Of a DNA stretch of 36,001 bases, positions 743 to 36,001 are shown piece after piece. The position numbers and the translations under genes are program-made. The notes beneath the pieces are model-generated. The model was not told the DNA's origin, ran no database searches, and worked only from the letters and a program-made list of their open reading frames with translations. Each line of letters begins with the position of its first letter. Within the stretch, counting starts at the first letter, position 1. Origin of the DNA: Dudresnaya verticillata (lineage: Eukaryota); NCBI GenBank assembly GCA_977862235.1, contig OZ374559.1, forward strand, positions 3,100,001-3,136,001. Reading direction: 5' to 3'.

Positions 743-1330
743 GGCCGTTCCGTCCTCTGAAGCACCCGCATTGCTCCGAGGCCAAACTCCGCCTCATCGC
801 GTACTCCATCACACTCGTCCTGCCACTTCTTCACCGTTCGCCTCCTGTCGCAGACTTGAAACCAAGGAAATCACGAAAACAATAGATCCGCCATCCATGC
901 CGTTTCAGCAGATGCCCTAATGTACGTATACACCGCTTGTTGTACCACAGGCTCTTTACGAGTCTATAGCAACCATAACTGCATTGCTGTATGGTAGACG
1001 TTTCTACCGCTTTGCTCAGGAACGGTGACCCACGCACTTTTGCCAAGACCGTGAGAGGCGGCCGATTAATACCCCCATCTTTTTCTTCGAATAGCCCCGT
1101 CGCCTACGATCTCAAGCGTTCAACAACAGCCTTGTGTTCTGCAAATTGGAAAACGACAGCTCCTGTTTCCTTCCTATCCCAGCAGCCCTTCTTCACCTCT
1201 TTAGACGACCTCTAGAAAAGTCATTGAGCTCAAGTTTGATGAGAATTGACGAGGGTGAAATAGACACTGGGGCTTCAGAGCTACGTTATACGAGGATATG
1301 TGCCAGCTACTGCTGTACAGGATTTTGGGT
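743..1330 (-). pseudogene. Decayed minus-strand ORF of unknown function (other copies ~12272-12850, ~19963-20545, partial 14535-14719)
   Basis: The minus frame reads as a long stop-interrupted peptide (..SSEAPVSI..IEFELGDFSRGRL..LTVLAKVRG.PFLSKAVETSTI..). The overlapping plus ORFs look like antisense shadows. No family recognised. Confidence 0.3.
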
Positions 1331-1333
1331 TTA

Positions 1334-2583
1334 CGAGAACACCAACCCGGAAGGACGGTTCGTGCTGAACCTCAGTGACATGCTGACGGCTCTAGAGGTA
1401 ACCCCAGAGCGGTTGTTGAAGATTGTAGAGTTTCTTTCGAAGCTCCAGAATGAAAAGCGTCTGTTTGCACTAGTATTCGAAGACCCTAGCGGGGATGTGA
1501 TATCGGACGAGATGGTCTCGTACATGCGGGCGGTGTGCGGGATTATGGATGCGTGCAGCTGGAATGACGGGAAGCTGCTGGCGCACATCCACGAGAAGTG
1601 CGAGTTGCAGGCCACAAACACGCTAGAGTGTTTGGCAGCAGGGTGCGACGGGATGTGGAGCTGCCTGTGCGTGGAGGGTGCGGCGATCGGGCACGCGTGC
1701 TCGACGATGGTGTTGATGAACTTTGTATGGCTGGGGAATAAGAAGGTGCTGTCCAAATACCGGTGCCAGGAGTTTCGGAAGGCAGCGATCGAGGTTACGC
1801 GGCCGACGACACTGAAGGACCCGCACCCCAGCAGTGCTCGTACGGAGATCGGGCTCTGGGCCTTGTGTTTGAATCGAGCTCGATGGCGGGGCCGGGTTCA
1901 ACATGGCAGAGTTTTTCGGGAAGCGCGAGCGCGAGACGAACCGGACGACGACGCTGGAGTCACCAAACATGGTCATGAACAGGCTCAAGTACTTGTTTGG
2001 TGGTGACGTTCAGTTTACGAAGGATGTTGGAACTTTATGGTAGGGTTCGAAGGCAATGGCGCAGAAGATGCTGGCGCAGATGCTAGTGGACCTGAACGTG
2101 GATCGGAAGGAGCGACAAATGAGGAGGAGTACCAGAGCGCGATGGGACTGGTGGTGTTTTTCGACCTGTGCGGGGGCGGATGACGGGGATGATGAGCGAA
2201 GCGATTGCTCGCGTGCAGGTGCAGGACGCTCTCCACCAGCGGGTGACTGTGGATGTCCGGCAGATGTGGGACTTTTGCGACTCGAACGAGGCGCGGAATC
2301 AGGACGGGGCGCTTGACTTTGAGTCATTCTACCACGGTTTTCTCGCGCCGTACTTTGGGTGCTACCCGTGCACGGACACCAATGTGAACAACCAAGCAGG
2401 CGCTGGCCGAGATAGACATGGACAAGGATGGGGTGGTGGACTGGGAGGAGCTTCTTGTGTACGTCAAATGGGCTCTTGCACAATACCTCGAGACGAGCGA
2501 CGTGGACACGGCGATTGAGATCGGGTTGTAGAAGGGGTTGGTCTCGGGGATGAGGGACGTTAAAGTGGATGACCCGGAGATAC
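1334..2583 (+). pseudogene. 5'-truncated, frameshifted DRE-TIM metallolyase (HMGL/IPM-synthase-like) + EF-hand gene, copy A
   Basis: AHIHEKCELQATNTLECLAAGCDGMWSCLCVEGAAIGHA aligns with the HxHND.G.A.AN.L.A..AG....G.GE..GN motif of DRE-TIM enzymes. Downstream EIDMDKDGVVDWEE is an EF-hand loop. Several frameshifts, small insertions and a TAG at 2529. Confidence 0.6.
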
Positions 2584-2641
2584 ACGCTGCATTTTACCAA
2601 AGTGTCCAGCTCTATTATCCCTTAATGCCACAACTTGTGAT

Positions 2642-3140
2642 TTCCAATGCATCCCATAGCAGGTTGACAACGGATCTCTTTTCCGCCCCTGCGTGGCTGA
2701 TCAATATATCGTACGGCGTTACTGAGTCCTGTAGTTCAAAAGCGTAGTGGCCTGATCCCTGAGATACTCACTCAAGAATATGCGGCACCAGTTGTCCATA
2801 CTTCCGCATTTCCCTTCGGCCTCATCGCGTGCCTGGCATTCTTCAGTCGACACCCATGCCCGAGGTATTGACTGTAACACGCTTTTGGAGCGGCCGCGAC
2901 CTCGTTGGATGTTCGAAGGACAATCGGTAACTAGAAAATGATTCCGAGCTGCGCTGCTTCCGTGCGGAGGTCTTTTCATAACATCTTGCAGAGCTTTCAG
3001 ATATTGTTGACCCACCTTCGTCGCTGAGACGGCAACAATCGCACCTGATCGTCCACACAATCCATCAAGGGCCATAATTATGGTTGGATCTGGGAACACG
3101 TCCTTGTCACTAGAGAACCAGGCAAGTCTGGCAGAATGGC
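2642..3140 (-). pseudogene. Internally deleted relic of the Roc-COR-TIR gene (COR pieces to start of TIR)
   Basis: FSSDK|DVFPDPTII|..RPPHGSSAARNHFLVTDCP..ELQDSVTPYDI matches 7876-8992, with deletions of about 8868-8954 and about 8313-8840. Confidence 0.9.
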
Positions 3141-3379
3141 GCTTAGAATAGTAAAGGGGCATGGACACATCGGAACGGAAGTCTACTGTGTGTTTCTTCC
3201 AGCAGGTCGGTCAAGAATTATTCTACGGGAGCAACTAAGTGCTGCTACCGCACAGGACAGAAGGACAAAACCGGTATATTACATACTGTGGCATTTGTAG
3301 CTAATGCTGGCATTCGTGCTGTATTACTCCAATGGCGTACGTAGCTATCAATTCATCAAGTTACAAAACAACACAAAAA

Positions 3380-4185
3380 CCGGGCTCTAGGGCAATGGCT
3401 GCAAGCAATAACATTGCAAATTTTTGTTGCACCAATACGCTCCCCTTCGGCAATCTATATTGCTATATAGCCGCCATCATGCCCCAGTAACATCTGCAGA
3501 ATATGCTTACGTCGTGCAATAAGTTTGCAATAGACTTAGATAGTGCGAAGGAAGCATGGGGATCCATGTTAACGTTTGTGTAATGCGATGTCAAAACTGT
3601 TCATTCATTTTGAGGAATATAATAGCTTCAAAAACTTGGTGGTCATCGCCTTGCGATTGTCAGTTAGCACGTGGTCCGCAATGCTCCTGAGCCGGTCAAA
3701 CTCGGCAACGGATCTAAGAATAAAGTTGCAGTTGATAAAAGGATCTAGTTTCCAGGGTACCTTTCGCTTCTTGGCTAAACGCTGAATGATCGATGACTTG
3801 TAAATTATAAGTCATGGTGCATCATCGACGACGATGATACTGTTGGCGAGAAAGCAGACCTGGCAACTTGTTAGTGATAAAGTAGCAATGATTTGGTACT
3901 ATGTAATTTACAGCATGGGGCTAGAAAACGCTATATTCTCGGGATCAACTCTAGAGATACCGCTCCCCCGCAAACCCGAACATATGGTTATATATACTGC
4001 TTTTAGCAACAGGGCTTCTAATATTGCTACCTAACTTAACCCAATAGGTATTACAATATACATTGTCACAGCCATAAGAATTGCAATTTGCTATCATATC
4101 AGCAACTCAATATGCCATTGCTATTGTATATTGCAATATGTTGCTACTGCTATTAATTGCACGACAGCCCTGGTCACCAGCCCTG
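3380..4185 (-). mobile_element. Non-autonomous hAT-family DNA transposon relic with transposase C-terminal dimerisation-domain fragment (~3590-3794)
   Basis: Minus strand reads FINCNFILRSVAEFDRLRSIADHVLTDNRKAMT/frameshift/QVFEAIIFLKMNEQF*, resembling the hAT C-terminal ..S.A.VERL.S....LTD.R..M....E...FLK.N...W motif. Imperfect termini tagggc..tgcaa..aata / cagggc..tgcaa..aata, with many GCAA/TTGC subterminal motifs. No TSD found. Confidence 0.65.
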
Positions 4186-4373
4186 ACGCGACGCTTCTGC
4201 AACTTTCTGCGCTTCTTTTCCTCTTCTTCCCCTCTTTTTGCCCTTCTTTTCTGTCCTTTCTGTCCGTTTTCTGCAACCCATCCGACGTTATTAACCTTTT
4301 ATCCTGTCCTGTAAGACAGCCATGGCAGGGATCAAACAGATACCTACCTTTTTGTCACCCTGTCATGTGCTCA

Positions 4374-5465
4374 TTATGACGGCGCCAGAAAACTATTACA
4401 CCGGCACTTTAATCACTCAACCCTGTTCGTATTCGAAGCAACTGTGAACAATGTCGTGGCAGAGCTGTGCGACTCTCATGCATGCGATTTTAGACAAGTC
4501 TCCGAAGGGAGGTCCGTCGAACATCGTCGGTATATCTGCCCGGTCTAACAACATCTCGAACACAAATTGGAATTGGCTTCGGTGCTGAAATGGACCGCGA
4601 CCAGAGAATAGCTTTATCATCGTGTCTAGACTCCTTCGTGAAGGAAACCATGGGCGAATATATTATGTACCCATTGCGCCGATACTCCTGAAAGTTTGGA
4701 GAGAGGAAACACATGCTTGAGAACAAACAAATTGTTGAAAATATTTGTCAAGACTTGTTCACAAACTTTATCCGGACAAGACTGGCGGAGACGAAACAAA
4801 AAACAGAGCCTCACTCTTCAGATCTCTTGTACTCGATCATAGTCATCAGCAAGGGAGACATGACGTTGGACACCTCCCTGGTCGTCGAATTTGCTCTCTC
4901 CAGATACGTTTCAACCAACCAGGCCTTATCGTAGGCTGTTTACGAGACTTGCAGAAACTCTAATGTTGAATACTTGACAGGGACTGACGTTTCTACCCGC
5001 TTTAGGGACCGGCTGTTTAACCGCCCTTTATCTAGACGGAAAGTTTGAGAGCCTCCGTATCTGAACAGGGTATGTAACTGCAACAATCACGCAGCCCGCA
5101 AGACCGGTAAAATGACGCAGTGGCGGAACCAAGATCCCAAAGGGGGCATTGGTGATGAGTCTTCAAAGCTGGGCACACCTGGACCCCAAAATATGGCGCG
5201 GTCCGTTGGGGTTTGATCCGGAAGGGTGGGTCTACAGAACTTCTCGTAGAGAGGGTGACAAAGTCCGACCTGGAACTTTTGTTCCGTTTTGTAGTAGGTC
5301 TCGTGCTTGCGCCGGTAGGTTTCTTGCCAAGCACGACTAAGCTCTAATCCCCGCCGAATTGCATCGCAGTTTTATTTTCATGCTAGCTTCCGAGAAGAGC
5401 GAAGGAGTGGGAGTGAAGGCTTTTGTCGAGGTTGCAAAATCACCCTCTGTGAAGGGAGGGGGATT
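4374..5465 (+). pseudogene. Cytochrome P450 pseudogene, copy 1
   Basis: ExxR (GAA AGT TTG AGA = ESLR, ~5039), PERF-like FDPEGW and heme motif FCSRSRACAG (degenerate FxxGxRxCxG). Multiple stops and frameshifts. Confidence 0.8.
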
Positions 5466-7416: not shown

Positions 7417-10400
7417 TTAACTTGCAAACTCGCGAGAGAACTTTTCTGCTGCTCTTGTTGCAAACTGAGTATCGGTCTCTCCACGGACATCGTTCCGAAC
7501 ACCGATATATCCTGTCACTTTCGCAAGTGTCTCCATTACCTCCGTCACTGGAACCTTCTTCTGCCGGTCGTGGTCGAAAAAGTGATTATCTTCAAATACA
7601 CTCCGAAATCGTTCGTCATACGGAAGCTGCTTGTCCTTGCAGTCTTCCACCTGGAGTTGGTAGAAAAGCGGGAATAGTACAGGTGACTGTGGTCCCTGCT
7701 TTCGCTCGAGAAATTCTGACAGTTCCAACATCGGCCACTTGCGAGCCACAAACGACGGAGAAAGAATGAAAGCGGCAGCCTTACTGCCGCGAATTGCCGC
7801 TCGAATTTGCTCTTCGTTTGTACGTTCCGAAACCTTCAAACTCTCTTCATCCAAAAAACATCGCAATCCCATTGCTTCCAATGCATTCCGTAGCGGGTAG
7901 GCAACAGATATCTTTTCCGGGCCTGCGTGGCTAATAAAGACATCATACGGAGTTACTGAGTCTTGTAGTTCAAAATGATCGTGGCTTGATCCGTCAGACA
8001 CACCCTCAAGAATATGTAACTTCAGTTCTCCATAGTTCCACAGTTGATTGCAATAGCATTTTCCTTCTGCCTCATCGAGTGCCTGACATTCTTCAGTCGA
8101 AACCCATGTCTGAGGTATTGACAACAACACACTTTTAGAGCCACCGCAACCCCCCTGGATGCTCGAAGGGCAATCAGTAACTAGAAAATGATTCCGAGCT
8201 GCGTTGCTTCCGTGCGGAGGTCTTGTCAAAAAATCTTCCATAGCTTTCAAACATTCTTGAGCCACCTTCATTGCTGAGACGGCATTGCACCTGATCGTCC
8301 ACACAATCCATCTTTTCTTAGGAACGAAGCAAACAACAACGCGGCAAGTCCCCTTCAGAGAAAGAATTACAGCATCTTGGCGAAGTTCCGGTGGCTTTGT
8401 TCGCTCTCCTCCGATAGTGCGATGAAGGAATGCAACAAAGTAGCCCTCCAAGCCAGGGGGAATGGCATCGTCAAAGATGGTTCTCAAAACAATTTCGCAC
8501 TCTCCTTCTTTCGTAGGGCACTGGAATCCCTCCCAACCTTTGGGAAGCAACGACGGAATCCCGACTAGCTCCTTCCGCTCATCACCCTCCGTCTCTGTAG
8601 AGTGCAAACGCATTAGAATGCCAAACCGGCACAGAATGTCAAGCATCACATCTCGAACAGGAGGTAGGTATTTACACCACAATTCATCCAGTCCCTTTCG
8701 TGGGATCAACCCGTTCTCGTAACTTTCTGCTTCATGCTGTCCTAGAGTTTGCAAACTCCTTTCAAACTCTTTCGCTTCTTCTTCACCCAGTCTTTCTCGC
8801 ATAAACTCAGCCGGGCCCGTGACCTGTCGAATAAAGTCCAGAATAACTGTTGGATCTGGGAACACGTACCATCCCTCGGCCGTCTGAACTTCGACGATAT
8901 GCCCTTGTTGGCCCTGGAATTGGACGCATTTCTCAACGTCTGCTTCTCTCTCCTCCTTGTCACTAGAGAATCCGGGAAGTCTGGCAGCATGGCTATGGAC
9001 TTCTCCCATTGCCAAAAAGACTTCTTGGCTTTCAGTGGCGTCTGACAAAATGGCTTCCCTGAGGGCAGCCCACCGAACTGGAACCTCTTCCCTTCCGTCA
9101 AGAATGTCTTCACTCGCTTCCTTGATAAACTTCTCTAGTTCCACAACGCCTGACCCGGCACGGTCTTGTTCAGCACTGCTGTTCTTGTTCTCGATGGCAA
9201 CCCACCGACACTTGCATTTGTCGACATCACCCTTCTCCCGTACCCAGTCATCGTAGACAGCCCTTCCGAGATGCTTTCGCAGTTTTTGTCGCAGCTGCTG
9301 AAACAAGCCTTCAGGGCTTTCAACTTCTGCCTTCCTGGTTCCCACCAGGATCACCCAAACATTTTTCGGGGTTTGCGAAGATGCATGTGCCATTTGCATC
9401 CAGTTGCATAGTTCTAACACTTCGTCCTCTTGGATGACTTCTGACGCAAACCTTTTCAGATCTACCACGAAAACAAAAATGGAAGCGCGGCGGATGAAGA
9501 TTGCGGGAACACTGAGGTACTCTGCCTGACCCCCAAGGTCCCAGCATTGCACCAACGCAGCTCGATTATCCGCCGGAAAGTCGGAACTCATGAGCCCTTG
9601 CCGTGCTGCTTCCCAAATGGGAGACGCTTGGGAGTTGATAGACTGCGAAGCAGCAATACTGGGCGGAGCTGGTGGTTGTTGAGCAGTGGTATGGCTGCTT
9701 GCCAATGTGTCTCCACTCTGGGGAACGGTCCTCTTGGTCGGAGGAGCTCGCTTGAGCCAAGTGGGGAGTTTAAGGTGGAACCTTGCGGTGGATTTTTCAC
9801 TCGGCCGCGATGATGCATCAGTTGCAGTTGGGAGAAACGCCGATCCAGCTCGAAAGGAGCCGGCATCGGATGCACTTGCTGTAGATGACGTTGGTCGTTC
9901 CATTGGCGTGGGTAACACTGGAATACCTGACCGTGACATGAGGGCATGGAAGGCCTCGCTGTTGAAAGCGAGTTGGTCGACAATGTCATCGTCCAACTTG
10001 GGGCCGTCCGGGACGACAAGAGTGCGACTCAGCGACACAAAGTGTGTCGGCTGGTGGGTGGCAACGAAGGGCATGGAGCGCAGGCTCCTTACCGTGCTTG
10101 TCTTGCCGCGTGCCGCACCGCCAAGAACAAGAAGAAAGCACTGCCGTGGCTTTGCTGTGGCGGTCTTGAGGGTGTTTTCAACAAGTGTGCTGGTGTCACC
10201 GATGCGGTTGACAAGGTATTGCGACCGCTCGCTGAAGAATCCAAGCTGAAGAGGCGTTACCTGTTGATGCGCTGCTTGTTGATGCAGTTGGGCTGCTGCG
10301 CGCTCATCACGAGCAACACCGACATCTCCGCGGCCAAGCAATGTGGCGAGCTCATAGAGTGCGGTGCGGGTGCGATGGAGTTCGATTGAGCGTTGGAAGA

Positions 10401-11223
10401 GGCTCTTCGCGCGCGGCGGATCGCGCGCGTCTCCGATATGATTGGACAAAAGCGCTTGGCCCAACTGAACCATCCAAAGTGGGGCCCTCTCGTGACCGCT
10501 GTCGTAGGCGCGTTGGAGCAGTTCGACGCCGCGCGGAACGTCTCGCGGAACATCGATTCCGCCGCTCAGCAGCAAATAGCCCAAATTGGCCATTGCGACG
10601 ACATTTTCGCCCTCCGCGATGGCGCGCTCGAACAGCGCAGCGGCGCGCGGAGCGTCTTTGGCGACGCCGTCGCCGGTTGCGAGGAGAAGGCCCAAATTGA
10701 CCATTGCGTCGACATCTTCGCCCTCCGCGATGGCGCGGTCGTACAGCGCAGCGGCGCGCGGAGCGTCTTTGGCGACGCCGTCGCCGGTTGCGAGGAGAAC
10801 GCCCAAATTGACCATTGCGTCCACATTCGCAAACTCTGCAACGGCTCGTTCGTACAGCGCTGCCGCGCGCTTTGTGTCTTTGACAAAATGGCGCCATCCT
10901 TCAGAGAGATTCCATCCGAGATTGTACAGCGACACCCCGCGCGGATCTCGCGCGTTGGCGCGCTCGACCAGCTCCGCGGCGCGGCGCTCGTCCTTGGGCA
11001 CTCCCGCGGCCCCTTCCTTTAGCAACAGTGCAAGGCCATGCCGCGCTTCGTCATGGTCGCCCTCATCAATCGCTCGCTCGAGCAAGGCGACGGCTCGCAA
11101 AGGCAGAACGGGCCCTCCATCTGATGCGTCCCAAAACGCAAAGGCGAGTGCAACCATGTCGTGGACGTCGGCATTGTCGTCGATAGCTTGGCGAAGGGCA
11201 CGGCGCTGCGGTGTGGCATCCAT
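7417..11223 (-). CDS. Sel1-like repeat - Roc GTPase - COR - TIR protein (ROCO family), 1268 aa, intronless
   Basis: About 8 Sel1 repeats (AMVNLG.LLATGDGVAKD..RAAALY.RA). P-loop GGAARGKT (10099-10122), G3 WDLGGQ (9526-9543), G4 VGTRK. COR motifs VPVRW, FPDPTVILDFIRQV, LDILCRFGIL, IPSLLP, IPPGL. TIR YDVFISHAG..LRCFLDEESL..SKAAAFILSPSF..KWPMLEL..LFPLFY. Confidence 0.92.
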   Translation of the reverse strand: MDATPQRRALRQAIDDNADVHDMVALAFAFWDASDGGPVLPLRAVALLERAIDEGDHDEARHGLALLLKEGAAGVPKDERRAAELVERANARDPRGVSLYNLGWNLSEGWRHFVKDTKRAAALYERAVAEFANVDAMVNLGVLLATGDGVAKDAPRAAALYDRAIAEGEDVDAMVNLGLLLATGDGVAKDAPRAAALFERAIAEGENVVAMANLGYLLLSGGIDVPRDVPRGVELLQRAYDSGHERAPLWMVQLGQALLSNHIGDARDPPRAKSLFQRSIELHRTRTALYELATLLGRGDVGVARDERAAAQLHQQAAHQQVTPLQLGFFSERSQYLVNRIGDTSTLVENTLKTATAKPRQCFLLVLGGAARGKTSTVRSLRSMPFVATHQPTHFVSLSRTLVVPDGPKLDDDIVDQLAFNSEAFHALMSRSGIPVLPTPMERPTSSTASASDAGSFRAGSAFLPTATDASSRPSEKSTARFHLKLPTWLKRAPPTKRTVPQSGDTLASSHTTAQQPPAPPSIAASQSINSQASPIWEAARQGLMSSDFPADNRAALVQCWDLGGQAEYLSVPAIFIRRASIFVFVVDLKRFASEVIQEDEVLELCNWMQMAHASSQTPKNVWVILVGTRKAEVESPEGLFQQLRQKLRKHLGRAVYDDWVREKGDVDKCKCRWVAIENKNSSAEQDRAGSGVVELEKFIKEASEDILDGREEVPVRWAALREAILSDATESQEVFLAMGEVHSHAARLPGFSSDKEEREADVEKCVQFQGQQGHIVEVQTAEGWYVFPDPTVILDFIRQVTGPAEFMRERLGEEEAKEFERSLQTLGQHEAESYENGLIPRKGLDELWCKYLPPVRDVMLDILCRFGILMRLHSTETEGDERKELVGIPSLLPKGWEGFQCPTKEGECEIVLRTIFDDAIPPGLEGYFVAFLHRTIGGERTKPPELRQDAVILSLKGTCRVVVCFVPKKRWIVWTIRCNAVSAMKVAQECLKAMEDFLTRPPHGSNAARNHFLVTDCPSSIQGGCGGSKSVLLSIPQTWVSTEECQALDEAEGKCYCNQLWNYGELKLHILEGVSDGSSHDHFELQDSVTPYDVFISHAGPEKISVAYPLRNALEAMGLRCFLDEESLKVSERTNEEQIRAAIRGSKAAAFILSPSFVARKWPMLELSEFLERKQGPQSPVLFPLFYQLQVEDCKDKQLPYDERFRSVFEDNHFFDHDRQKKVPVTEVMETLAKVTGYIGVRNDVRGETDTQFATRAAEKFSREFAS
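10580..10820 (-). repeat. 111-bp (37-codon) tandem Sel1-repeat units
   Basis: cccaaattg recurs at 10580, 10691 and 10802. The paralogue has it only at 18381 and 18492. Confidence 0.95.
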
Positions 11224-11316
11224 GTCGGCAGGAGCGGGCGGTCGAGCGGGTGGAGACGGTTGGAGATGGGATGGTTGGGGTATGTGTCGGGAGCGGGTGC
11301 ACCAACCGCACGGCTC

Positions 11317-11324
11317 TATTTATG
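11317..11324 (-). promoter_or_regulatory. Possible TATA-like box (CATAAATA) ~94 bp upstream of ROCO ATG; also 19005-19012
   Basis: The only AT-rich run in a GC-rich upstream region, followed on the minus strand by a C-rich leader. Motif and position only. Confidence 0.35.
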
Positions 11325-12141: not shown

Positions 12142-12868
12142 CAGTCAACCGCTCTTAGAACAAACTCGGGCCCATTGAATGCTTTTTAAAGTGGCGCAAG
12201 GGAGAGAGCGCAGTACTCCTCCCCAAAGCCAATCTCCGGCCTCGCCCTGGATCTGCTGCGCATCCGAGCCCGGCCGTTCCGTCCTCTGAAGCACCCGCAT
12301 TTCTCGGAGTCCAGACTCCGCCTCATCGCGTAATCCATCGACCTCGTCTTCCACCTTCTTCACCGTTCGCCTCCTGTCGCAGACTTGAAACCAAGAAAAT
12401 CACGAAAACAATAAATCCGCCATCCATGCCGTTTCAGCAGATGCCCTAATGTATACACCGCTTGTTGTACCACGGGCTCTTTACGAGTCTATAGCAACCA
12501 TAACTGCATTGCCGGATGGTAGACGTTTCTACCGCTTTGCTCAGGAACGGTCACCCGCGCACTTTTGCCAAGACCGTGAGAGGCGGCCGATTTATACCCC
12601 CATCTTTTTCTTCGGATAGCCCCGTCGCCTACGATCTCAAGCGTTCAACAAACAGCCTTGTGTTCTGCAGATTAGAAAAGGACAGCTCCGGTTTCCTTCC
12701 TGAGGAACGCGCAGCAGCCCTTCTTCACCTCTGTAAACGACCTCGAGAAAAGTCACCGAGCTCAAATTCGATGCGAATTGACGAGGGTGCAATAGAAACC
12801 GGGGCTTCAGAGCTGCGTTATACGAGCATATGTGCCAGCTACTTCTGGACAGGATGTCTTGAGTTTAC

Positions 12869-14088
12869 GAGAACATCGACCAGAAAGGACGATTGGTGCT
12901 GACCTTCGTGACATGCTGACGGCTCTAGAGGCAACCCCAGAGCGCATGTTGAAGATTATAGAGTTGCTTTTGAAGATTATAGAGTTGCTTTGAAGCTCCC
13001 GAATGAAAAGCGTCTGTTTGCGGTAGTCTTTGTTCAGTATTCGAAGACCCCGGCGGGGACATGGTGCCGGAATAGATGGTCTTGTACACGCGGGCGGTGC
13101 GCGGGATGATGGATGCGTGCGGATGGAAGGACGGGAAACTGCTGGCGCATATCCACGAGAAGTGGGAGTTGCAGACGACAAACACGCTGGAGTGTTTGGC
13201 AGCAGGTTGCGACGGGATGTGGAGCAGACTGTACGTGGAGGGTGTAGCGATGGGCATGCGTACTTGACGGTGGTGTTGATGAACTTGTACGGCTGGGGAA
13301 TAAGAAGGTGCTGTCCCAGTACCGGTACCAGGAGTTTCCGAAGGAAGCGATCAAGGTTACACGGCTGACGACGCTGATGGACCCGCACCCCAAGCAGTGC
13401 GTGTGCAGAGAGCGAGAGCTGGACCTTGTATTTGACTCGGGCTGTATGGCGGGGGTGGTTTCAACATGGCAGAGCTTTTCGGGGAGCGCGAGACGAACCG
13501 GATGACAACGCTAGCGTCGCCGAACATGGTCGTGAACAGGCTCAAGTACTTGTTTGGTGCCGACGCGAATTTTACATAGGGATTGGCGCAGAAGATGCTG
13601 GTGCAGATGCTAGTGGACCTGATTGCCGGACGGAAGTAGGAGTACCAGAGCGCGATGGGACTGACGGTGTTGTTCGGCGGGTGCGGGGGGAAGGTGACGG
13701 GGAAGATGAGCGAGGCAGTTGCTCGCGTGCAGATTCAGAACGCTCACAACCATAAGGCGATTGCGGATGTCCGCAAGGTGGCGTGGGACGTTTGGGAGTC
13801 GAAGCAGGCGCGGAAGCAGGACGGGGCGCAGGACTTTGACTCGTTCTACCTCGGGTTCCTCGCGCCGTACTTTGGGTGCTGCCTTGCAAGGACACCAAGC
13901 GGGTGCTGGGCAGGATAGAAATGGACAAGGACGGGGTGGTGGACTGGGAGGAGTTTCTTTTGTACGTCAAGTGGGCTCTCGCGCAATACCACGAGACGAG
14001 CGACGCGGACACGGCGATTGAGATCGCGTTGCAGAAGGGGTTGACCCCGGGGATGAGGAACGTTAAGGTGGGTAACCCGGGGATACAA
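12869..14088 (+). pseudogene. DRE-TIM + EF-hand pseudogene, copy B (more diverged)
   Basis: LLAHIHEKWELQTTNTLECLAAGCDGMWS and RIEMDKDGVVDWEEFLLYVKWAL. Many frameshifts and a 21-bp tandem duplication at 12949-12990. Confidence 0.6.
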
Positions 14089-15233
14089 AGCGGGCCTTTG
14101 CGCGGCAGCCGGCGTCGGACGAAGAGTCGGCGAGGGCACAAGGGCCGGAGATTGAGATGCAACCGTGTAGCAGTGTTATGGTAATGCTCGTTATGAATAT
14201 GAAATCTGTTATGGCAGAAATCTCGGCCTCGGCGGCATCGCAACTGTCATTTTAACTCGGTCATTCCTTTGCTTTCAAAACTGGTCTCTATCCGTACTCT
14301 CTTTTCTGCTTGTGCCCTCGGCCCACCGCCAAGAGCAACTATTCCGCAAACCATCTTGGAGTGACCAGAATGTGGCCATGGAACATTTCTTGGCATACGA
14401 CTTGCACTGACAAGGGAAAAGAGCAAGTGAGAGAGAGAAAATGTGTGTGGATGTGTGATATGATGACAGTTACCGTTCTCAAAAGTGATGCAAGTCCCTG
14501 CGCCTGGCATCTAGGCAGCAAGCGCACCTGCAATCGTTGAACAAACAGCTTTGTGTTGTGCAGATTGTAAAACGAAAAAACCCGGTCTCCTTCCTTGCCC
14601 AGCAGCCCTTCTTCACATTCTTCACCTTTTTAGATGATCTCGACAAAAGTCGCTGGGCTTTAGTTTGATGTGAATTGACGAGGACGAAATAGAAACCGGG
14701 GCTTCAGAGCTGCGTTATATCCAGGTCACAATATTGCCACATGGTTGCTTTCAATCTGCAGAGCACACGCACTTACTACACTTTTCGTCTCCTCTCCTTC
14801 GTCCCCGGGTCCCGTAAATTAATGGTCGCCATATCGGCATTTTCCCGAGTAACCAAATTCGTTTCCTTAGCTCAACTACGTCCAGACAGCCTACTTTTTT
14901 GAAGTCTAATAGGTATTATTAGTTAAGTACAACAAGTTGTATTAAAAATAAAGTGATATACAGGTAGTGTGTAGTGTGGTAGGACGTGTCCAAACTAGTT
15001 TATATATTGATCATCCATAAACTCAAGCTTCATGCTTTCGTAAAGTGACGTTTACCCCCTCCATAAACCCCGAGGGTATTGTTCGCAATGACCTGCTATC
15101 AGAAGCAAGCGCCAATATTCTGGCACTTTGGAGCTCGAAAAGCTTTGGCCAGAGAGAAAGAGGAAGCAAAAAAGGTATCTCGTGGCAGTCCAGGTAGCGA
15201 TGTAACAGACAAGGAGGGGTGGCGGGACATAAT

Positions 15234-18200
15234 TTACTTAAGAGCCTCGAACAACATATGTGCAGCTCTCTTGGCGAACTCATTTTCCGATTCTCCTTGA
15301 TCGTTCCGAGCACCAGTATATTTCGTCACCGCTGCAACTGTGTCCATTACCTTCGACTCTTTCCCGAACTCGCGTTCAAAGAAGCGATTCTCTTTAAACT
15401 CTCGCCAAAATCGGTCGTCGAACGGAAGCTGTTTGTCCTTACAATCTCCGTACTCGAGTTTGTAGAACAGCGGGAACAGCACAAGGCGCGGTGATCCTTG
15501 TTTGCGCTTGAGAAATTCTGAAAGCTCCAACAGCGGCCACTTGCGAGAGACAAACGACGATGACAGGATGAAGACGGCAGCTTTGCTGCCCCGGACCGCT
15601 GGCCAGATCCGTTCATCAGTTGTTTGCGTGGAAACCCTCAGACTCTCTTCATCCAGAAAACAACGCAAGCCCTTCTCCATCAACGCACTTCGCAGCGGGT
15701 ATGCAAGCGACTCCTTATCTGGCCCTGCGTGGCTGATAAATACATCGAAAGGTCTTGCAGCTAGTCGCACGTCAACAGGACGCGGACCTGAGCCCGCACT
15801 TGCTCCTTTGAGGATGTGCGGCTTCAATCGCTTGAAAGTCCAAAGCTGCTCGCAAACGCAAGTGCCTTCTGCTGGGTCCAGTGGCTGGCACTGCGTACTT
15901 GTTACCCAACTCCGACGGATACCCAACTGCACGCTACTGGAACTTCCACACCCCCCGCGCAATTCCTTAGGGCAGTCGGTGATCAGATAGTCTTTCCAGC
16001 TTGCATTGGTCCCATGCAGTGGTCCCTTCAAAAAACTTTCCATGCCCCGCAAACACTGGTGCGCAACCTGCACTGCTTCATCGGCATCCGCCCTTATAGT
16101 CCAGTCGATCCATCTCTTTTCTGGAATAAAGCGAACCACGACTCTGCATGTCCCGCAAGGGCCAGGATGACGGCATCTTGACGAAGCTCGGGCGGTTTTG
16201 TCCGCTCTCTTCCAATGGTTCGGTGAAGGTACGCGATCAGTGACCCTGTCAGACTTGGCGGAATGGTATCAACAAACTCTGTTCGTAAACTTATTTCACT
16301 CTCTCCGTCCTTTGTGTCACACGAGAACCCTTCCCAACCCTTTGGCAGCAGTGAAGGTATCCCGATTAGCTCGTTCTGTTCACCGTCCGCTCCTTCCACA
16401 GCCTGAAGGCGCATGAGGATGTCAAATTGACAAAGAATGTCAAGCATGACTTTTCGGACAGCCGATGGGTATTTACACCACAGTACCTCCAGTCCTTCAC
16501 GGGGTATCAACCCATTCCGATAACCGTCTGCTTCATGCTTTCCCAGAGTCTGTAAAGTCCTTTCAAACTCTTTCGCTTCTTCTTCACCCAGTCTTTCTCG
16601 CATAAACTCAGCCGGGCCCGTGACCTGCCGAATAAAGTCCAGAATAACTGTTGGATCTGGGAACACGAACCATCCCTCGCCCGTCTGCACTTCTACGATA
16701 TGGCCCTGCTGACTCTGGAATTGGACGCATTTCTCAACGTCGGCTTCTCTCTCCTCCTTGTCACTAGAGAATCCGGGAAGTCTTGCAGCTTGGCTCTGGA
16801 CTTCTGCCATTGCCAGAAAGACCTTTTGACTTTCAGTGGCGTGTGACCAAATGGCTTCCCTGAGGGCAGCCCATCGAACTGGAACTCGTTCCCTTCCGTC
16901 AAGAATGTCTTCACTCGCTTCCTTGATAAACTTCTCCAGTTCTACAACGCCTGACCCGGCACGGTCTTGTTCAGCACTGCTGTTCTTGTTCTCGATGGCA
17001 ACCCACCGACACTTGCATTTGTCGACATCGCCCTTCTCACATACCCAGTCATTGTAGACAGCCCTTCCAAGATGCTTTCGCAGTTTTTGTCGCAGCTGCT
17101 GAAACAAGTCTTCAGGGCTTTCAACTTCTGCCTTCCTGGTTCCCACCAGGATCACCCAAACGTTTTTCGGGGTTTGCGAAGACGTATGTGCCATTTGCAT
17201 CCAGTTGCATAGTTCCAACACTTCGTCCTCTTGGGTGACTTCTGACGCAAACCTTTTCAGATCTACCACGAAAACAAAAATGGAAGCGCGGCGGATGAAG
17301 ATTGCGGGAACACTGAGGTACTCTGCCTGACCCCCAAGGTCCCAGCATTGCACCAACGCAGCGCGATGGTCCTCAGGAAAAACGTTACTCATGAGCCCTT
17401 GTCGTGCTGCTTCCCAAATGGGAGACGATAGGGAGTTTATAGACTGCGAAGCAGCAATACTGGGCGGAGCTGGTGGTTGTTGAGCAGTGGTATGGCTGCT
17501 TGCCAATGTGTCTCCACTCTGGGGAACGGTCCTCTTGGTCGGAGGAGCTCGCTTGAGCCAAGTGGGGGGTTTAAGGTGCAATCTTGCGGTGGATTTTTCA
17601 CTCGGCCGCGATGATGCATCAGTTGCAGTTGGGGGAAACGCCGATCCAGCTCGAAAGGAGCCGGCATCGGATGCACTTGCTGTAGATGACGTTGGTCGTT
17701 CCGTTGGCGTGGGTACCTCTTGAATACGTGACCGTGAAATGAGGGCATGGAAGGCCTCGCTGTTGAAGGCGAGCTGGTCGACAATGTCATCGTCCAACTT
17801 GGGGCCGTCCGGGACGACAAGAGTGCGACTCAGCGACACAAAGTGTGTCGGCTGGTGGGTGGCAACGAGGGGCATGGAGCGCAGGCTCCTTACCGTGCTT
17901 GTCTTGCCGCGTGCCGCACCGCCGAGAACAAGAAGAAAGCACTGCCGTGGCTTTGCTGTGGCGGTCTTGAGGGTGTTTTCAACAAGTGTGCTAGTGTCAC
18001 CGATGCGGTTAAGAAGGTATTGCAAGCGGCTGCCGAAGAATTCAAGCTCAAGAGGCGTTACCTGTTGATGCGCTGCTTGTTGATGCAGTTGGGCTGCTGC
18101 GGGCTCATCGCGAGCAACACCGACATCTCCGCGGCCAAGCAATGTGGCGAGCTCATAGAGTGCGGCGCGGGAGCGATGGAGTTCGATTGAGCGTTGGAAG

Positions 18201-18911
18201 AGGCTCTTCGCGCGCGGCGGATCGCGCGCGTCTCCGATATGATTGGACAAAAGCGCTTGGCCCAACTGAACCATCCAAAGTGGGGCCCTCTCGTGACCGC
18301 TGTCGTAGGCGCGTTGGAGCAGTTCGACGCCGCGCGGAACGTCTCGCGGAACATCGATTTCGCCGCTCAGCAGCAATTCGCCCAAATTGGCCATTGCGGC
18401 GACATTTTCGCCCTCCGCGATGGCGCGGTCGTACAGCGCAGCGGCTCGCGGAGCGTCTTTGGCGACGCCGTCACCGGTTGCGAGGAGAAAGCCCAAATTG
18501 ACCATTGCGTTGGCATTCGCAAACTCTGCAACGGCTCGTTCGTACAGCGCTGCCGCGCGCTTTGTGTCTTTGACAAAATGGCGCCATCCGATATGAAGAC
18601 GCACTCCGAGATTGAACAGCGACACCCCGCGCGGATCTCGCGCGTTGGCGCGCTCGACCAGCTCCGCGGCGCGGCGCTCGTCCCTGGGCACTCCCGCGCC
18701 ACCTTCCTTCAGCAACTGCAAGGCCATGCCGTGCTTCGTCATGGTCGCCCTCACCAATCGCTCGCTCGAGCAAGGCGACGGCTTGCAAAGGTAGAACAGG
18801 CCCTCCATCTGAAGCGTCCCAGTACGCAAATGCGAGTGCAACCATGTCGTCGACGTCGGCATTGTCGTCGATAGCTTGGCGAAGGGCACGGCGCTGCGGT
18901 GTGGCATCCAT
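15234..18911 (-). pseudogene. Second Sel1-Roc-COR-TIR gene, with two frameshifts and a divergent C-terminal half
   Basis: Same start MDATPQRRAL at 18911. 2-bp deletion at 18716/18717 and 1-bp loss in the C-run at 16152-16154 relative to copy 1. TIR FDVFISHAGPDK..KWPLLEL lies in ORF 15234-16139. Confidence 0.9.
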
Positions 18912-20552: not shown

Positions 20553-21742
20553 AGAACATCAACCCGGAAGGACGGTTGGTGTTGAACCTCCATGACATGC
20601 TGACGGCTCTAGAGGCAACCCCAGAGCGGTTGTTGAAGATTGTAGAGTTTCTTTCGAAGCTCCAGAATGAAAAGCGTCTGTTTGCGCTAGTATTTGAAGA
20701 CCCCAGCGGGGATGTTATACAGGACGAGATGGTCTCGTACATGCGGGCGGTGTGCGGGATTCCGGATGCATGCAGCTCGAATGACGGCAATCTGCTGGCG
20801 CCCATCCACGAGCAGTGCGAGTTGCAGGCCACAAACACGCTAGAGTGTTTGGCAGCAGGGTGCGACGGGATGTGGAGCTGCCTGTGCGTCGAGAGTGCGG
20901 CGATGGGGCACGCGTGCTCGACGATGGTGTTGATGAACTATGTACGGCTGGGGAATAAGAAGGTGCTGTCCAAGTACCGGTGCAAGCGGTTTCGGAAGGC
21001 GGTAATCAAGGTTACGTGGCTGACGACGATGAAGGACGCGGAACCCAAGCACGGAGAACGAGCGCTGGGCCTTGTGTTTGACTCGAGGGCGATGGCGGGG
21101 CCGGGTTCAACATGGCAGAGTTTTTCGGGGGAGCGCGAGCGCGAGACGAACCGGACGACGACGCTGGAGTCGCCAAACATGGTCATGAACAGGCTCAAGT
21201 ACTTGTTTGGTGACGACGTGCAGTTTACGAAGGCAATGGCGCAGAAGATGCTGGCGTATCTTGACCTGAACGTGGGACGGAAGGAGCGACAAATGAGGAG
21301 GAGTACCAGAGCGCGATGGGACTGGCGGTGTTTTTCGACCTGCGCAGGTGCAGATGACGGGGATGATGAGCGAAGCGATTGCTCGCGTGCAGGTGCAGGA
21401 CGCTTACCACCAGCGGGTAAGTGTGGATGTCCGGCAGATGTGGGACTTTTGGGACTCGAAGGAGACTCTGAATCAGGACGGGGCGCTTGACTTTGAGTCA
21501 TTCTACCACGGGTTTCTCGCGCCGTACTTTGGGTGCTACCTGTGCACGGACACCAAGAAGGCGCTGGCCGAGATAGACATGGACAAGGATGGGGTTGTGG
21601 ACTGGGAGGAGTTTCTTGTGTACGTCAAGTGGGCTCTTGCACAATGCCTCGAGACGAGCGACGCGGACACGGCGATTGAGATCGGGTTGTAGAAGGGGTT
21701 GGTCTCGGGGATGAGGGACGTTAAGGTGGATAACCCGGAGAT
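20553..21742 (+). pseudogene. DRE-TIM + EF-hand pseudogene, copy C
   Basis: LVFEDPSGD..APIHEQCELQATNTLECLAAGCDG..GHACST and LAEIDMDKDGVVDWEEF. Shares frameshifts and the terminal TAG with copy A. Confidence 0.6.
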
Positions 21743-21802
21743 ACACGCTGCATTTTACCAAAGTGTCCAGCTCTATTATCCCTTAATGCCGCAACTTGTG
21801 AC

Positions 21803-22301
21803 TTCCAACGCATCCCGTAGCGGGTAGGCAACGGATCTCTTTTCCGCCCCTGCGTGGCTGATAAATATATCGTACGGCGTTACTGAGTCCTGTAGTTCAA
21901 AAGCGTAGTGGCCTGATCCCTGAGATACCCACTCAAGAATATGCGGCACCAGTTGTCCATACTTCCGCATTTCCCTTCGGCCTCATCGCGTGCCTGACAT
22001 TCTTCAGTCAACACCCATGCCCGAGGTATTGACTGTAACACGCTTTTGGAGCGGCCGCGACCACGTTGGATGTTCGAAGGACAATCGGTAACTAGAAAAT
22101 GATTCCGAGCTGCGCTGCTTCCGTGCGGAGGTCTTTTCAAAACATCTTGCAGAGCTTTCAGATATTGTTGACCCACCTTCGTCGCTGAGACGGCAACAAT
22201 CGCACCTGATCGTCCACACAATCCATCAAAGGCCATAATTATGGTTGGATCTGGGAACACGTCCTTGTCACTAGAGAATCAGGCAAGTCTGGCAGAATGG
22301 C
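21803..22301 (-). pseudogene. Internally deleted Roc-COR-TIR relic, second copy
   Basis: Same deletion junctions as 2642-3140; reads YDIFISHAGAEKRSVAYPLRDALE. Confidence 0.9.
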
Positions 22302-22540
22302 GCTTAGAATAGTAAAGGGGCATCGACACATCGGAACGGAAGTCTACTGTGTGTTTCTTCCAGCAGGTCGGTCAAGAATTATTCTACGGGAGCAACTAAG
22401 TGCTGCTACCGCACAGGACAGAAGGACAAAACCGGTATATTACATACTGTGGCATTTGTAGCTAATGCTGGCATTCGTGCTGTATTACTCCAATGGCGTA
22501 CGTAGCTATCAATTCATCAAGTTACAAAACAACACAAAAA

Positions 22541-29332: not shown

Positions 29333-29370
29333 GTTCCCCATGACCTGTACGCCTAATGGCGATATGGAGG

Positions 29371-34202: not shown

Positions 34203-34242
34203 TGTGGCAAACTCCGGTTCTTGAGCTGTCGGACCCTGGTAA
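34203..34242 (-). repeat. 40-bp remnant (inner end) of the 5' LTR
   Basis: tgtggcaaactccggttcttgagctgtcggaccctggtaa is identical to 28877-28916 and is followed immediately by telomere repeats. Confidence 0.93.
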
Positions 34243-36001
34243 GGGGTTTTAGGGGTTTTAGGGGTTTAGGGGTTTTAGGGGTTTAGGGTTTTAGGGGTTT
34301 TAGGGGTTTTAGGGGTTTTAGGGGTTTAGGGGTTATAGGGGTTTAGGGGTTTAGGGGTTTAGGGGTTTAGGGGTTTAGGGCTTTAGGGGTTTAGGGTTTA
34401 GGTTTAGGGTTTTAGGGTTTAGGGGTTTAGGGGTTTAGGGGTTTTAGGGGTTTAGGGGTTTAGGGGTTTAGGGGTTTAGGGGTTTTAGGGGTTTAGGGGT
34501 TTAGGGGTTTTTAGGGGTTTAGGGGTTTAGGGGTTTAGGGGTTTAGGGGTTTTAGGGGTTTTAGGGGTTTAGGGGTTTTAGGGGTTTAGGGGTTTTAGGG
34601 GTTTAGGGGTTTTAGGGGTTTTAGGGGTTTAGGGGTTTAGGGGTTTAGGGTTTAGGGGTTTTAGGGGTTTAGGGGTTTAGGGGTTTAGGGGTTTAGGGGT
34701 TTAGGGGTTTAGGGGTTTTAGGGGTTTAGGGGTTTTAGGGGTTTAGGGGTTTAGGGGTTTTAGGGGTTTAGGGGTTTAGGGGTTTAGGGGTTTAGGGGTT
34801 TAGGGGTTTAGGGGTTTTAGGGGTTTAGGGTTTAGGGGTTTTAGGGGTTTAGGGGTTTAGGGTTTAGGGGTTTAGGGGTTTAGGGGTTTAGGGGTTTAGG
34901 GGTTTAGGGGTTTAGGGGTTTAGGGGTTTTAGGGGTTTAGGGGTTTAGGGGTTTAGGGGTTTTAGGGGTTTTAGGGGTTTTTAGGGGTTTAGGGGTTTAG
35001 GGGTTTTAGGGGTTTAGGGGTTTAGGGGTTTAGGGGTTTAGGGGTTTAGGGGTTTAGGGGTTTAGGGGTTTAGGGGTTTAGGGGTTTAGGGGTTTAGGGG
35101 TTTAGGGGTTTAGGGGTTTAGGGGTTTAGGGGTTTAGGGGTTTAGGGGTTTAGGGGTTTAGGGGTTTAGGGGTTTAGGGGTTTAGGGGTTTAGGGGTTTA
35201 GGGGTTTAGGGGTTTAGGGGTTTTAGGGGTTTAGGGGTTTAGGGGTTTAGGGGTTTAGGGGTTTAGGGGTTTAGGGGTTTAGGGGTTTAGGGGTTTAGGG
35301 GTTTAGGGGTTTAGGGGTTTAGGGGTTTAGGGGTTTAGGGGTTTAGGGGTTTAGGGGTTTAGGGGTTTAGGGGTTTAGGGGTTTTAGGGGTTTAGGGGTT
35401 TAGGGGTTTAGGGGTTTAGGGGTTTAGGGGTTTAGGGGTTTAGGGGTTTAGGGGTTTAGGGGTTTAGGGGTTTAGGGGTTTAGGGGTTTAGGGGTTTAGG
35501 GGTTTAGGGGTTTAGGGGTTTAGGGGTTTAGGGGTTTAGGGGTTTAGGGGTTTAGGGGTTTAGGGGTTTAGGGGTTTAGGGGTTTAGGGGTTTAGGGGTT
35601 TAGGGGTTTAGGGGTTTAGGGGTTTAGGGGTTTAGGGGTTTAGGGGTTTAGGGGTTTAGGGGTTTAGGGGTTTAGGGGTTTAGGGGTTTAGGGGTTTAGG
35701 GGTTTAGGGGTTTAGGGGTTTAGGGGTTTAGGGGTTTAGGGGTTTTTAGGGGTTTAGGGGTTTAGGGGTTTAGGGGTTTAGGGGTTTAGGGGTTTAGGGG
35801 TTTAGGGGTTTAGGGGTTTAGGGGTTTTAGGGGTTTAGGGGTTTAGGGGTTTTAGGGGTTTAGGGGTTTAGGGGTTTAGGGGTTTAGGGGTTTAGGGGTT
35901 TAGGGGTTTAGGGGTTTAGGGGTTTAGGGGTTTAGGGGTTTAGGGGTTTTAGGGGTTTAGGGGTTTAGGGGTTTAGGGGTTTAGGGGTTTAGGGGTTTAG
36001 G
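34243..36001 (+). repeat. Telomere, (TTTAGGGG)n, G-rich strand running to the window end
   Basis: 1759 bp of T3AG4. Variants (T4AG4, T3AG3, TTATAGGGG at 34333, CTTTAGGGG at 34381) are concentrated proximally; the distal part is nearly homogeneous. Confidence 0.97.

What the first reader, a model, noticed from the sequence alone, without database searches (positions are those of the whole stretch)
7417..11223. Sel1-repeat / Roc-COR / TIR protein: a candidate NLR-analogue immune receptor built on a ROCO GTPase
Seen: one intronless 1268-aa ORF with ~8 Sel1-like repeats, Roc G1/G3/G4 motifs, COR, and a C-terminal TIR retaining the Glu of WPMLEL (E1167, codon 7723-7725). Known: NLRs use a repeat sensor, a nucleotide switch and an effector. 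Enzymatic TIRs (plant TNLs, SARM1, bacterial Thoeris ThsB) cleave NAD+ using this Glu once oligomerised. COR mediates ROCO dimerisation. ROCO sensors are usually LRR or ankyrin repeats, and LRR-ROCO genes have been proposed as pathogen receptors in brown algae. Inference: this is a sensor-switch-effector receptor in which Sel1 repeats replace LRRs and Roc-COR replaces the STAND ATPase. I do not know of a characterised protein with this architecture.
Basis: partly seen in the sequence, partly recalled or inferred. Interest (0 to 1): 0.88.

Follow-up and report, generated by a model that had tools for sequence, protein, structure and literature searches.

The report
Seaweed Sel1-Roc-COR-TIR candidate immune receptor
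This intact gene, probably from a red seaweed, joins Sel1 repeats, an LRRK2-like Roc-COR switch fold and a TIR domain that keeps its catalytic glutamate; it is likely an intracellular immune receptor of a layout already listed for the red alga Chondrus and for bacteria, and it sits near a chromosome end beside a broken, partly exchanged copy.

Summary
Observation confirmed. Window 7417-11223 (-) is one 1268-aa ORF with about 8 Sel1 repeats, Roc, COR and a C-terminal TIR with W1163/E1167. COR is shown by fold (Z 28.1 to LRRK2 Roc-COR), not by Pfam. The layout is not new on paper: Teng et al. 2024 list TPR-ROCO-TIR for Chondrus crispus, whose proteins are the named homologues found here, and Kaur et al. 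2021 predicted bacterial repeat-Roc-COR-TIR counter-invader proteins. My searches found no functional test. Added here: (1) the gene lies 23 kb from a telomere, beside a frameshifted copy and two remnants; (2) the two copies are 95% identical up to codon ~823 and 68% after it, so near-identical sensor-switch halves carry different COR-B/TIR halves; (3) the G4 guanine-binding Asp is missing (Ala here; Asp in 4 of 20 relatives); (4) in the careful tree the TIR groups with TIRs of NB-ARC proteins from the same searches. Best reading: a sensor-switch-NADase immune receptor. Ligand, enzyme activity, oligomerisation and expression are untested. Verdict: new member of a computer-catalogued, untested kind; interest 0.5.

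The parts
7417..11223 (-). Intact ORF, 1268 aa, Sel1-Roc-COR-TIR (copy 1, P0001)
10264..11166 (-). About 8 Sel1-like repeats (aa ~20-320); includes a 111-bp tandem repeat at 94% identity, one unit of which is absent from copy 2
   Evidence: Pfam; model; fold; tandem repeat; 111-nt gap
9088..10143 (-). Roc G-domain (aa ~361-712): G1 368-376, G2 Thr393, G3 561-566
9568..10023 (-). About 150-aa Ser/Ala/Pro/Thr-rich insertion between G2 and G3; core aa 440-529 has pLDDT under 50; length varies among relatives
9328..9342 (-). G4 region GTRKA (aa 628-632): Ala in place of the guanine-binding Asp
   Evidence: ungapped alignment to Ypt7 G4; column counts
7999..9087 (-). COR-A and COR-B (aa ~713-1075, borders approximate), with Cys1018/1026/1056/1058, a likely zinc site
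   Evidence: Foldseek to COR-only chain 3dpt_A E 1.3e-7; Z 28.1 to LRRK2 1329-1857; Cys1026 in 25 of 25 rows with a residue
7420..7947 (-). C-terminal TIR domain (aa ~1093-1268)
   Evidence: Pfam; AbTIR E 1.1e-11; RUN1 TIR Z 19.1, rmsd 2.4, 159 aligned
7723..7725 (-). Codon of Glu1167, the Glu of the WxxxE motif
8725..8763 (-). Identity break between copy 1 and copy 2 (best at codon 823, support range 821-833, inside COR-A)
   Evidence: 115 of 2354 mismatches on the 5' side, 418 of 1322 on the 3' side
11316..11324 (-). TATA-like element about 95 nt upstream of the ATG, kept in both copies
   Evidence: sequence; function not tested
15234..18911 (-). Tandem paralogue (copy 2), broken by a 2-nt loss near 18716 and a 1-nt loss near 16157; keeps G1-G4 motifs and the TIR WxxxE
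2642..3140 (-). Deleted remnant of a further copy (pieces of COR and the TIR start), 80% identical to copy 1
21802..22304 (-). Second remnant of the same kind, 81% identical to copy 1
34242..36001 (+). Telomere array, mostly TTTAGGGG (172 of 216 units): places the cluster in a subtelomere

Best explanation
The gene encodes a Sel1-Roc-COR-TIR protein that likely acts as a cytosolic immune receptor of a red seaweed, predicted to bind a foreign or altered-self protein with its Sel1 repeats and to respond by TIR-catalysed NAD+ cleavage. Shown: the four domains, intact G1-G3, the TIR WxxxE motif, a family of relatives that includes three Chondrus proteins, and a subtelomeric cluster with one intact copy, one frameshifted copy and two remnants. 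Inferred steps: (1) the Sel1 solenoid binds the trigger; (2) this shifts the Roc-COR unit towards its self-associated state, which in the bacterial model Roco is the GDP or empty state, so nucleotide-loaded monomer would be 'off', the reverse of an NLR ATPase; (3) self-association would cluster the C-terminal TIRs, which would cleave NAD+ through Glu1167 to deplete NAD+ or to make ADPR/cADPR-type signals leading to defence or cell death; (4) duplication, repeat-number change and exchange between paralogues would vary the sensor and re-pair it with other COR-B/TIR halves. My odds: architecture 0.98, TIR active as NADase when clustered about 0.75, immune or non-self role about 0.65.
For: Domains. 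Catalytic motif: W1163/E1167 align without gaps to the WxxxE of AbTIR, where E208A abolishes activity (PMC10641520 passages); Glu in 19 of 20 aligned relatives with a residue there. Switch motifs: G1 Lys 13 of 13, G2 Thr 12 of 13, G3 Asp 15 of 16. Purifying selection between the two copies: dN/dS 0.20 in Roc-C, COR-A and TIR against 0.86 in the Sel1 repeats. Module mixing among the hits: Sel1, ankyrin or TIR in front of Roc-COR-TIR (P0004, P0009, P0011), Sel1-TIR without Roc (P0020, P0026, P0030), and a non-TIR C-terminus in P0014. TIR tree: 10 Roc-linked C-terminal TIRs form one group (83/88) nested among 14 NB-ARC-linked TIRs, ingroup 100/100 against 3 outgroup TIRs. Chondrus has 58 NB-WD40 genes, 23 with TIR (PMC7145615 passage). 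Clustering and pseudogenes match the Ectocarpus ROCO candidate receptors (PMC3341825 passages). Bacterial Roc-COR proteins with swapped effectors, TIR among them, are predicted counter-invader proteins; Atlas clusters with Roc, COR-A and TIR_2 exist in bacteria.
Against: No ligand, activity or infection data. The G4 Asp is missing here and present in only 4 of 20 relatives, so GTP switching is not assured. The Sel1-versus-Roc difference in N/S counts is not significant (Fisher p 0.06 to 0.21 by rounding), and dN/dS 0.86 is below 1 and involves a broken copy, so it also fits relaxed selection. The clustering of 7 of 17 substitutions at helix-A positions (p about 0.009) uses a position set chosen after seeing the data, and 5 of the 7 lie in one patch. 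The larger quick tree of 144 TIR rows did not keep the Roc-linked TIRs together and placed P0001's TIR in a weakly supported group; the 83/88 support is not starred. GTP makes the bacterial Roco monomeric, so the NLR analogy fails in polarity unless the dimer is the active state, and a two-fold dimer may be too small for a TIR active assembly (recalled). Subtelomeric duplication and decay happen to any gene. The family is small in Chondrus, five ROCOs.
Confidence: 0.55

Rival explanations
1. A non-immune ROCO signalling protein for stress, development or membrane traffic, as for LRRK2, DAPK1 or Dictyostelium Rocos; the Sel1 repeats bind a host partner and the TIR makes a second messenger or scaffolds partners.
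For: The best-studied ROCOs are not pathogen receptors (PMC6337361 passages); many brown-algal ROCOs respond to abiotic stress (PMC11378527 abstract); sensor dN/dS is below 1.
Against: The TIR groups with TIRs of NB-ARC proteins; the locus shows copy birth, decay and exchange; sensors and C-termini vary across the family.
Confidence: 0.2
2. A receptor whose Roc is no longer a guanine-specific switch: it binds nucleotide weakly or without base preference, or serves as a scaffold, and ligand-driven clustering alone activates the TIR. This can hold together with an immune role.
For: G4 Asp replaced in 16 of 20 relatives and in this protein, while 3 of 4 more distant Roc hits keep it; a long variable insertion splits the G-domain; P0013 has degenerate G1 and G3.
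Against: G1-G3 are nearly invariant; Roc-C dN/dS 0.20; G4-G5 are known to vary in ROCO proteins; a conserved Glu-Asn pair in the G5 region of most rows might take over base binding (speculation).
Confidence: 0.15
3. A silent or dying subtelomeric duplicate, or an array partly produced by mis-assembly; the intact frame has no current function.
For: The neighbour is frameshifted twice and two further copies are remnants; the window also holds retroelement debris; reads could not be checked.
Against: 3.8 kb open frame with all motifs; dN/dS 0.20 in three domains; TATA-like element kept; the 3' thirds differ at 32% of bases and the downstream flanks do not align, which a doubled haplotype would not easily give.
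Confidence: 0.1

Closest known systems
Chondrus crispus TPR(Sel1)-ROCO-TIR proteins (XP_005713456, XP_005712860, XP_005710386; layout named in Teng et al. 2024, PMC11378527)
   Same: Same order of domains; 29% identity over 97% of residues 340-1268; identical G1 in XP_005713456; same Asp-less G4 in two of the three.
   Different: Different species or paralogue (29-34% identity). The paper gives the layout in a few words; the passages I read say nothing on function, G4, locus structure or TIR origin. Which Chondrus accessions it meant I could not see.
Prokaryotic AP-GTPase (Roc)-COR counter-invader proteins (Kaur et al. 2021, PMC8195603, Fig. 6D)
   Same: N-terminal repeats, Roc-COR, C-terminal effector slot that often holds TIR; several paralogues per genome; Atlas bacterial clusters with Roc, COR-A and TIR_2.
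   Different: Eukaryotic; Sel1 in place of LRR; the TIR appears to come from the same pool as NB-ARC-linked TIRs in my hits, though no identified bacterial Roc-TIR was in the tree.
Brown-algal LRR-ROCO candidate receptors (Zambounis et al. 2012, PMC3341825; Teng et al. 2024)
   Same: ROCO chassis, clustered genes, pseudogenes, repeat-number variation, proposed immune role.
   Different: They use exon-encoded LRRs and the Ectocarpus LRR proteins have no TIR; here one open frame, Sel1 repeats and an enzymatic-type effector.
Red-algal NB-ARC-WD40(-TIR) NLR-like proteins and plant TNLs
   Same: Repeat sensor, nucleotide switch, TIR of a related group; best TIR fold matches are plant NLR TIRs.
   Different: The switch is a Ras-like Roc-COR, not a STAND ATPase; the order is sensor-switch-effector, not effector-switch-sensor.
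LRRK2/LRRK1 and C. tepidum Roco
   Same: Roc-COR fold (Z 28.1, rmsd 4.8, 464 aligned).
   Different: About 15% identity, no kinase, Asp-less G4, long insertion, TIR output.

Membership tests
ROCO proteins | Roc G-domain (Pfam Roc; G1-G3) | tested here: met
   Roc 34 bits, cut-off 27; motifs
ROCO proteins | COR directly after Roc | tested here: met
   No Pfam COR hit, but fold match over LRRK2 1329-1857 and to the COR-only chain 3dpt_A
ROCO proteins | Canonical G4 Asp for guanine binding (common, but G4-G5 vary in ROCOs) | tested here: not met
   Ala632; Asp in 4 of 20 relatives. Lowers 'working GTPase', not ROCO membership
ROCO proteins | GTP binding and hydrolysis; COR-mediated monomer-dimer cycle | not testable with these tools
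   Needs biochemistry
Enzymatic TIR (NADase) domains | TIR fold with the Glu of WxxxE in register | tested here: met
Enzymatic TIR (NADase) domains | NAD+ cleavage on self-association | not testable with these tools
   Needs an assay
NLR / STAND receptors | STAND ATPase (NB-ARC or NACHT) | tested here: not met
   No NB-ARC or NACHT Pfam hit; not found by a local NB-ARC profile; fold is Roc-COR. Not an NLR; it may work like one
NLR / STAND receptors | Repeat sensor plus effector domain on one chain | tested here: met
   Sel1 and TIR; order reversed
NLR / STAND receptors | Diversifying selection on the sensor | tested here: inconclusive
   dN/dS 0.86, p 0.06-0.21, two copies only
NLR / STAND receptors | Clustered, birth-and-death gene organisation | tested here: met
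   One intact, one broken, two remnants within 20 kb; rest of the genome not held
Chondrus-type TPR-ROCO-TIR | TPR-like repeats, Roc-COR, C-terminal TIR, homologous to the Chondrus proteins along the chain | tested here: met
   E 5.1e-104, 97% of the Roc-to-TIR query covered; full alignment
Sel1-like repeat proteins | 36-40-aa helical hairpin repeats matching Pfam Sel1 | tested here: met

The most novel reading that the evidence does not exclude
Red seaweeds run a second class of intracellular immune receptor in which a Roc-COR unit that has lost its guanine-specificity Asp replaces the NLR ATPase, draws its TIR from the alga's own NB-ARC receptor pool, fires in the dimeric (GDP or empty) state, and gains new sensor-output pairs by recombination inside COR-A in subtelomeric arrays. 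It would be a eukaryotic ROCO with an NAD-cleaving output and a simple read-out for how Roc-COR controls an effector.
Probability: 0.25. Interest if true: 0.85.

Novelty: new member of a known kind. Interest (0 to 1): 0.5.

Why it matters
Red algae lack canonical plant or animal immune receptors in the genomes reviewed (PMC8307928 passage), and their candidates come from domain lists. This protein offers a direct test: one enzyme domain, one catalytic residue, a measurable product. It also bears on how Roc-COR controls an output domain, still debated for LRRK2, since NAD+ cleavage is easy to follow against nucleotide state. The layout itself is already catalogued, which limits the surprise.

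Tried and rejected
No whole genome is held, so family size in this organism is unknown. RNA runs: none was listed; no evidence either way on expression. Complex prediction of two copies of residues 886-1268 (COR-B plus TIR): score 0.00, verdict 'no answer', alignment not used; not evidence for or against. The word-index homologue search with 'longer' covered only 2994-5000 aa and found nothing; the repeat with the alignment returned only P0004 and P0002, so taxonomic range is poorly sampled: of 20 hit clusters looked up, 2 carry an organism name, both Chondrus. NCBIfam gave only partial TIR matches far below cut-off. The Atlas did not hold P0001 or P0004; the Chondrus homologue was used. Collen et al. 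2013 (Chondrus genome) is not held; it and its supplement may already describe these Sel1 proteins as candidate receptors, as the Asparagopsis paper's table based on Chondrus categories suggests. The one supplementary text file of Teng 2024 had none of 5 terms; its figures were not seen. A paper search for the telomere unit returned unrelated chemistry papers. I first read the quick tree as repeated TIR swapping between Roc and NB-ARC proteins; the careful tree fits one fusion, so I dropped that claim. Which copy is the recombinant could not be told: both 3' parts are about equally far from relatives.
Full report
1. Observation. The ORF is as described: 7417-11223 on the minus strand, 1268 aa, one frame. 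Pfam gives Sel1, Roc, TIR_2 and TIR above their curated cut-offs, and no COR. Glu1167 is encoded at 7723-7725. An AlphaFold2 model of residues 342-1268, built on a 37-row alignment, has mean pLDDT 82.5 and pTM 0.77. Foldseek ranks LRRK2, LRRK1 and C. tepidum Roco first and also hits a COR-only chain (E 1.3e-7). VIA-align gives Z 28.1, rmsd 4.8, 464 aligned residues against LRRK2 1329-1857, and Z 19.1 for the TIR against RUN1. A single-sequence model of residues 1-408 shows eight helical hairpins up to residue 320 whose best matches are Sel1-repeat proteins. So all four domains are real; COR rests on fold.

2. Motifs. In the 37-row alignment (36 relatives, many of them fragments; one misaligned row left out; counts are rows with a residue at the column) G1 Lys is kept in 13 of 13, G2 Thr in 12 of 13, G3 Asp in 15 of 16 and the TIR Glu in 19 of 20. 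The WPMLE stretch aligns without gaps to the WxxxE of AbTIR, whose E208A mutant is inactive (PMC10641520, passages). G4 departs: GTRKA aligns to Ypt7 GNKID, so the Asp that reads the guanine base (established knowledge of small GTPases) is Ala632. Asp is present in 4 of 20 relatives and in 3 of 4 more distant Roc hits. G4-G5 are known to vary in ROCOs (PMC6337361, passages). About 150 low-complexity residues lie between G2 and G3. COR-B holds four Cys, one of them in 25 of 25 rows, likely a zinc site.

3. Relatives. The word-index search found 1 protein among 7991 candidates: Chondrus crispus 'Sel1-repeat containing protein' XP_005713456, 29% identical over 97% of the query. The full HMMER scan gave 4494 hits at E<=0.001 and 27 at E<=1e-30; 150 were listed. 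Of 20 hit clusters looked up, 2 carry an organism name, both Chondrus; the rest are unnamed assemblies. I infer a red seaweed host from this and from the intron-free frame; it is not shown. Pfam on 31 chosen hits shows Sel1-Roc-TIR (P0002, P0003, P0004, P0006, P0007), Ank-Roc-COR-TIR (P0009), TIR-Roc-TIR (P0011), Sel1-Roc with another C-terminus (P0014), Sel1-TIR (P0020, P0026, P0030) and NB-ARC proteins with a C-terminal TIR, most with WD40 repeats (P0038, P0046, P0056, P0069, P0076, P0109, P0122). A quick tree of 144 TIR rows did not hold the Roc-linked TIRs together. A careful tree of 28 rows (10 Roc C-terminal, 1 Roc N-terminal, 14 NB-ARC, 3 outgroup; near-duplicates, fragments, plant-like NB rows and P0080 left out) put the 10 in one group at 83/88, nested among the NB-ARC TIRs. 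This fits one fusion of a TIR from the NB-ARC pool to the ROCO, but support is moderate, most rows have no organism, and no identified bacterial Roc-TIR was included.

4. Locus. The window ends in 1.76 kb of telomere repeat, 23 kb from the gene. A second copy lies at 15234-18911, broken by a 2-nt and a 1-nt loss and one Sel1 repeat shorter. Two remnants at 2642-3140 and 21802-22304 are about 80% identical to copy 1. Upstream flanks are 89% identical over 2.9 kb; downstream flanks do not align. Identity between the copies drops sharply inside COR-A: 115 of 2354 mismatches before codon 823, 418 of 1322 after (support range 821-833). One copy is therefore a mosaic, by gene conversion of the 5' part or by unequal crossing-over: nearly the same sensor and Roc are joined to COR-B/TIR halves only 59% identical in protein. 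dN/dS is 0.20 in Roc-C, COR-A and TIR and 0.86 in the Sel1 repeats; COR-B is saturated. The Sel1-Roc contrast is not significant (p 0.06-0.21). Repeat position 7 is the most variable across 69 repeats from 10 proteins and differs in 3 repeats between the copies, but that alone has p 0.2, and the wider helix-A clustering (7 of 17, p 0.009) is post hoc.

5. How it most likely works. Inferred: the Sel1 solenoid binds a trigger; the Roc-COR unit shifts to its associated state; the clustered TIRs cleave NAD+ through Glu1167; NAD+ loss or ADPR-type products drive defence or cell death. The bacterial model Roco is dimeric when empty or GDP-bound and monomeric with GTP (PMC5714945, abstract and outline), so the 'on' state for a TIR would be the GDP or empty one, the reverse of the NLR ATP state. 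Loss of the G4 Asp could weaken nucleotide binding and favour that shift; this is speculation. Rivals: non-immune signalling (0.2), a Roc that is no longer guanine-specific (0.15, compatible with immunity), a silent or mis-assembled copy (0.1).

6. Known and unknown. Teng et al. 2024 (PMC11378527; passages and section 14 read, one supplementary text file searched) list 'TPR-ROCO-TIR (Chondrus crispus)' and count five ROCOs there. Kaur et al. 2021 (PMC8195603, passages) describe bacterial LRR-AP-GTPase-COR proteins with at least 24 C-terminal domains, TIR among them, as predicted counter-invader proteins; earlier notes of this scan led me to that paper. The Atlas lists bacterial clusters with Roc, COR-A and TIR_2. 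Zambounis et al. 2012 (PMC3341825, passages) report clustered and pseudogenised LRR-ROCOs without TIR in Ectocarpus. Other papers seen as passages: PMC7145615, PMC12115072, PMC6928737, PMC9806590, PMC8307928, PMC7159879, PMC10022894. Seven searches listed no paper that tests a Roc-COR-TIR protein; most hits were seen only as listings, some lists were cut (for example 20 of 122), and subscription journals and Collen et al. 2013 are not held.

7. Verdict. A real, well-formed member of a kind already catalogued by computer and, as far as I found, untested. It is a ROCO and not an NLR; it likely works like one. New here are the Asp-less G4 across the family, the subtelomeric mosaic pair and the likely source of the TIR. 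Interest 0.5; most novel reading 0.25 likely, 0.85 if true.

Noticed in passing
window 28875-34241 (-): Ty3-type LTR retrotransposon with a chromodomain (gag-like ORF 34148-32376, pol 32379-29371). Its telomere-side LTR is cut to about 40 bp and joined directly to the telomere array, as if the chromosome end was healed inside the LTR.
   Followed up: partly
window 34242-36001: Telomere unit is mainly the 8-mer TTTAGGGG (172 of 216 units), with T4 variants (30 of 216); a paper search for the unit was uninformative.
   Followed up: partly
window 1239-2006, 12771-13557, 20456-21210, 14668-14727: Degenerate copies of an ORF with a weak HMGL-like match (E 0.011, below cut-off) travel in the same duplicated unit as the ROCO gene.
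   Followed up: no
window 743-5463 and 19963-24620: 4.7-kb segmental duplication at 94% identity that carries the ROCO remnants.
   Followed up: partly
window 25764-27560 and 28453-29043 (+): Retroelement remnants: a reverse-transcriptase fragment (E 1.6e-10) and a 598-aa ORF that looks like the C-terminal part of a non-LTR element (my reading; no Pfam support).
   Followed up: no
window 15234-16043 (-): The 3' piece of the broken copy is a 269-aa ORF starting at a Met in COR-B, with a whole TIR and its Glu; it could give a TIR-only-like product if transcribed.
   Followed up: no
proteins P0014/P0156: Sel1-Roc-COR relatives whose C-terminus is not a TIR and has no Pfam hit: an unidentified effector slot.
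   Followed up: no
proteins P0038, P0056, P0069, P0076, P0109, P0122: NB-ARC-WD40 proteins with the TIR at the C-terminus, not the N-terminus as in plant TNLs.
   Followed up: partly
protein P0013: Family member with degenerate G1 and G3 and no TIR in the held sequence, a possible pseudo-GTPase.
   Followed up: no
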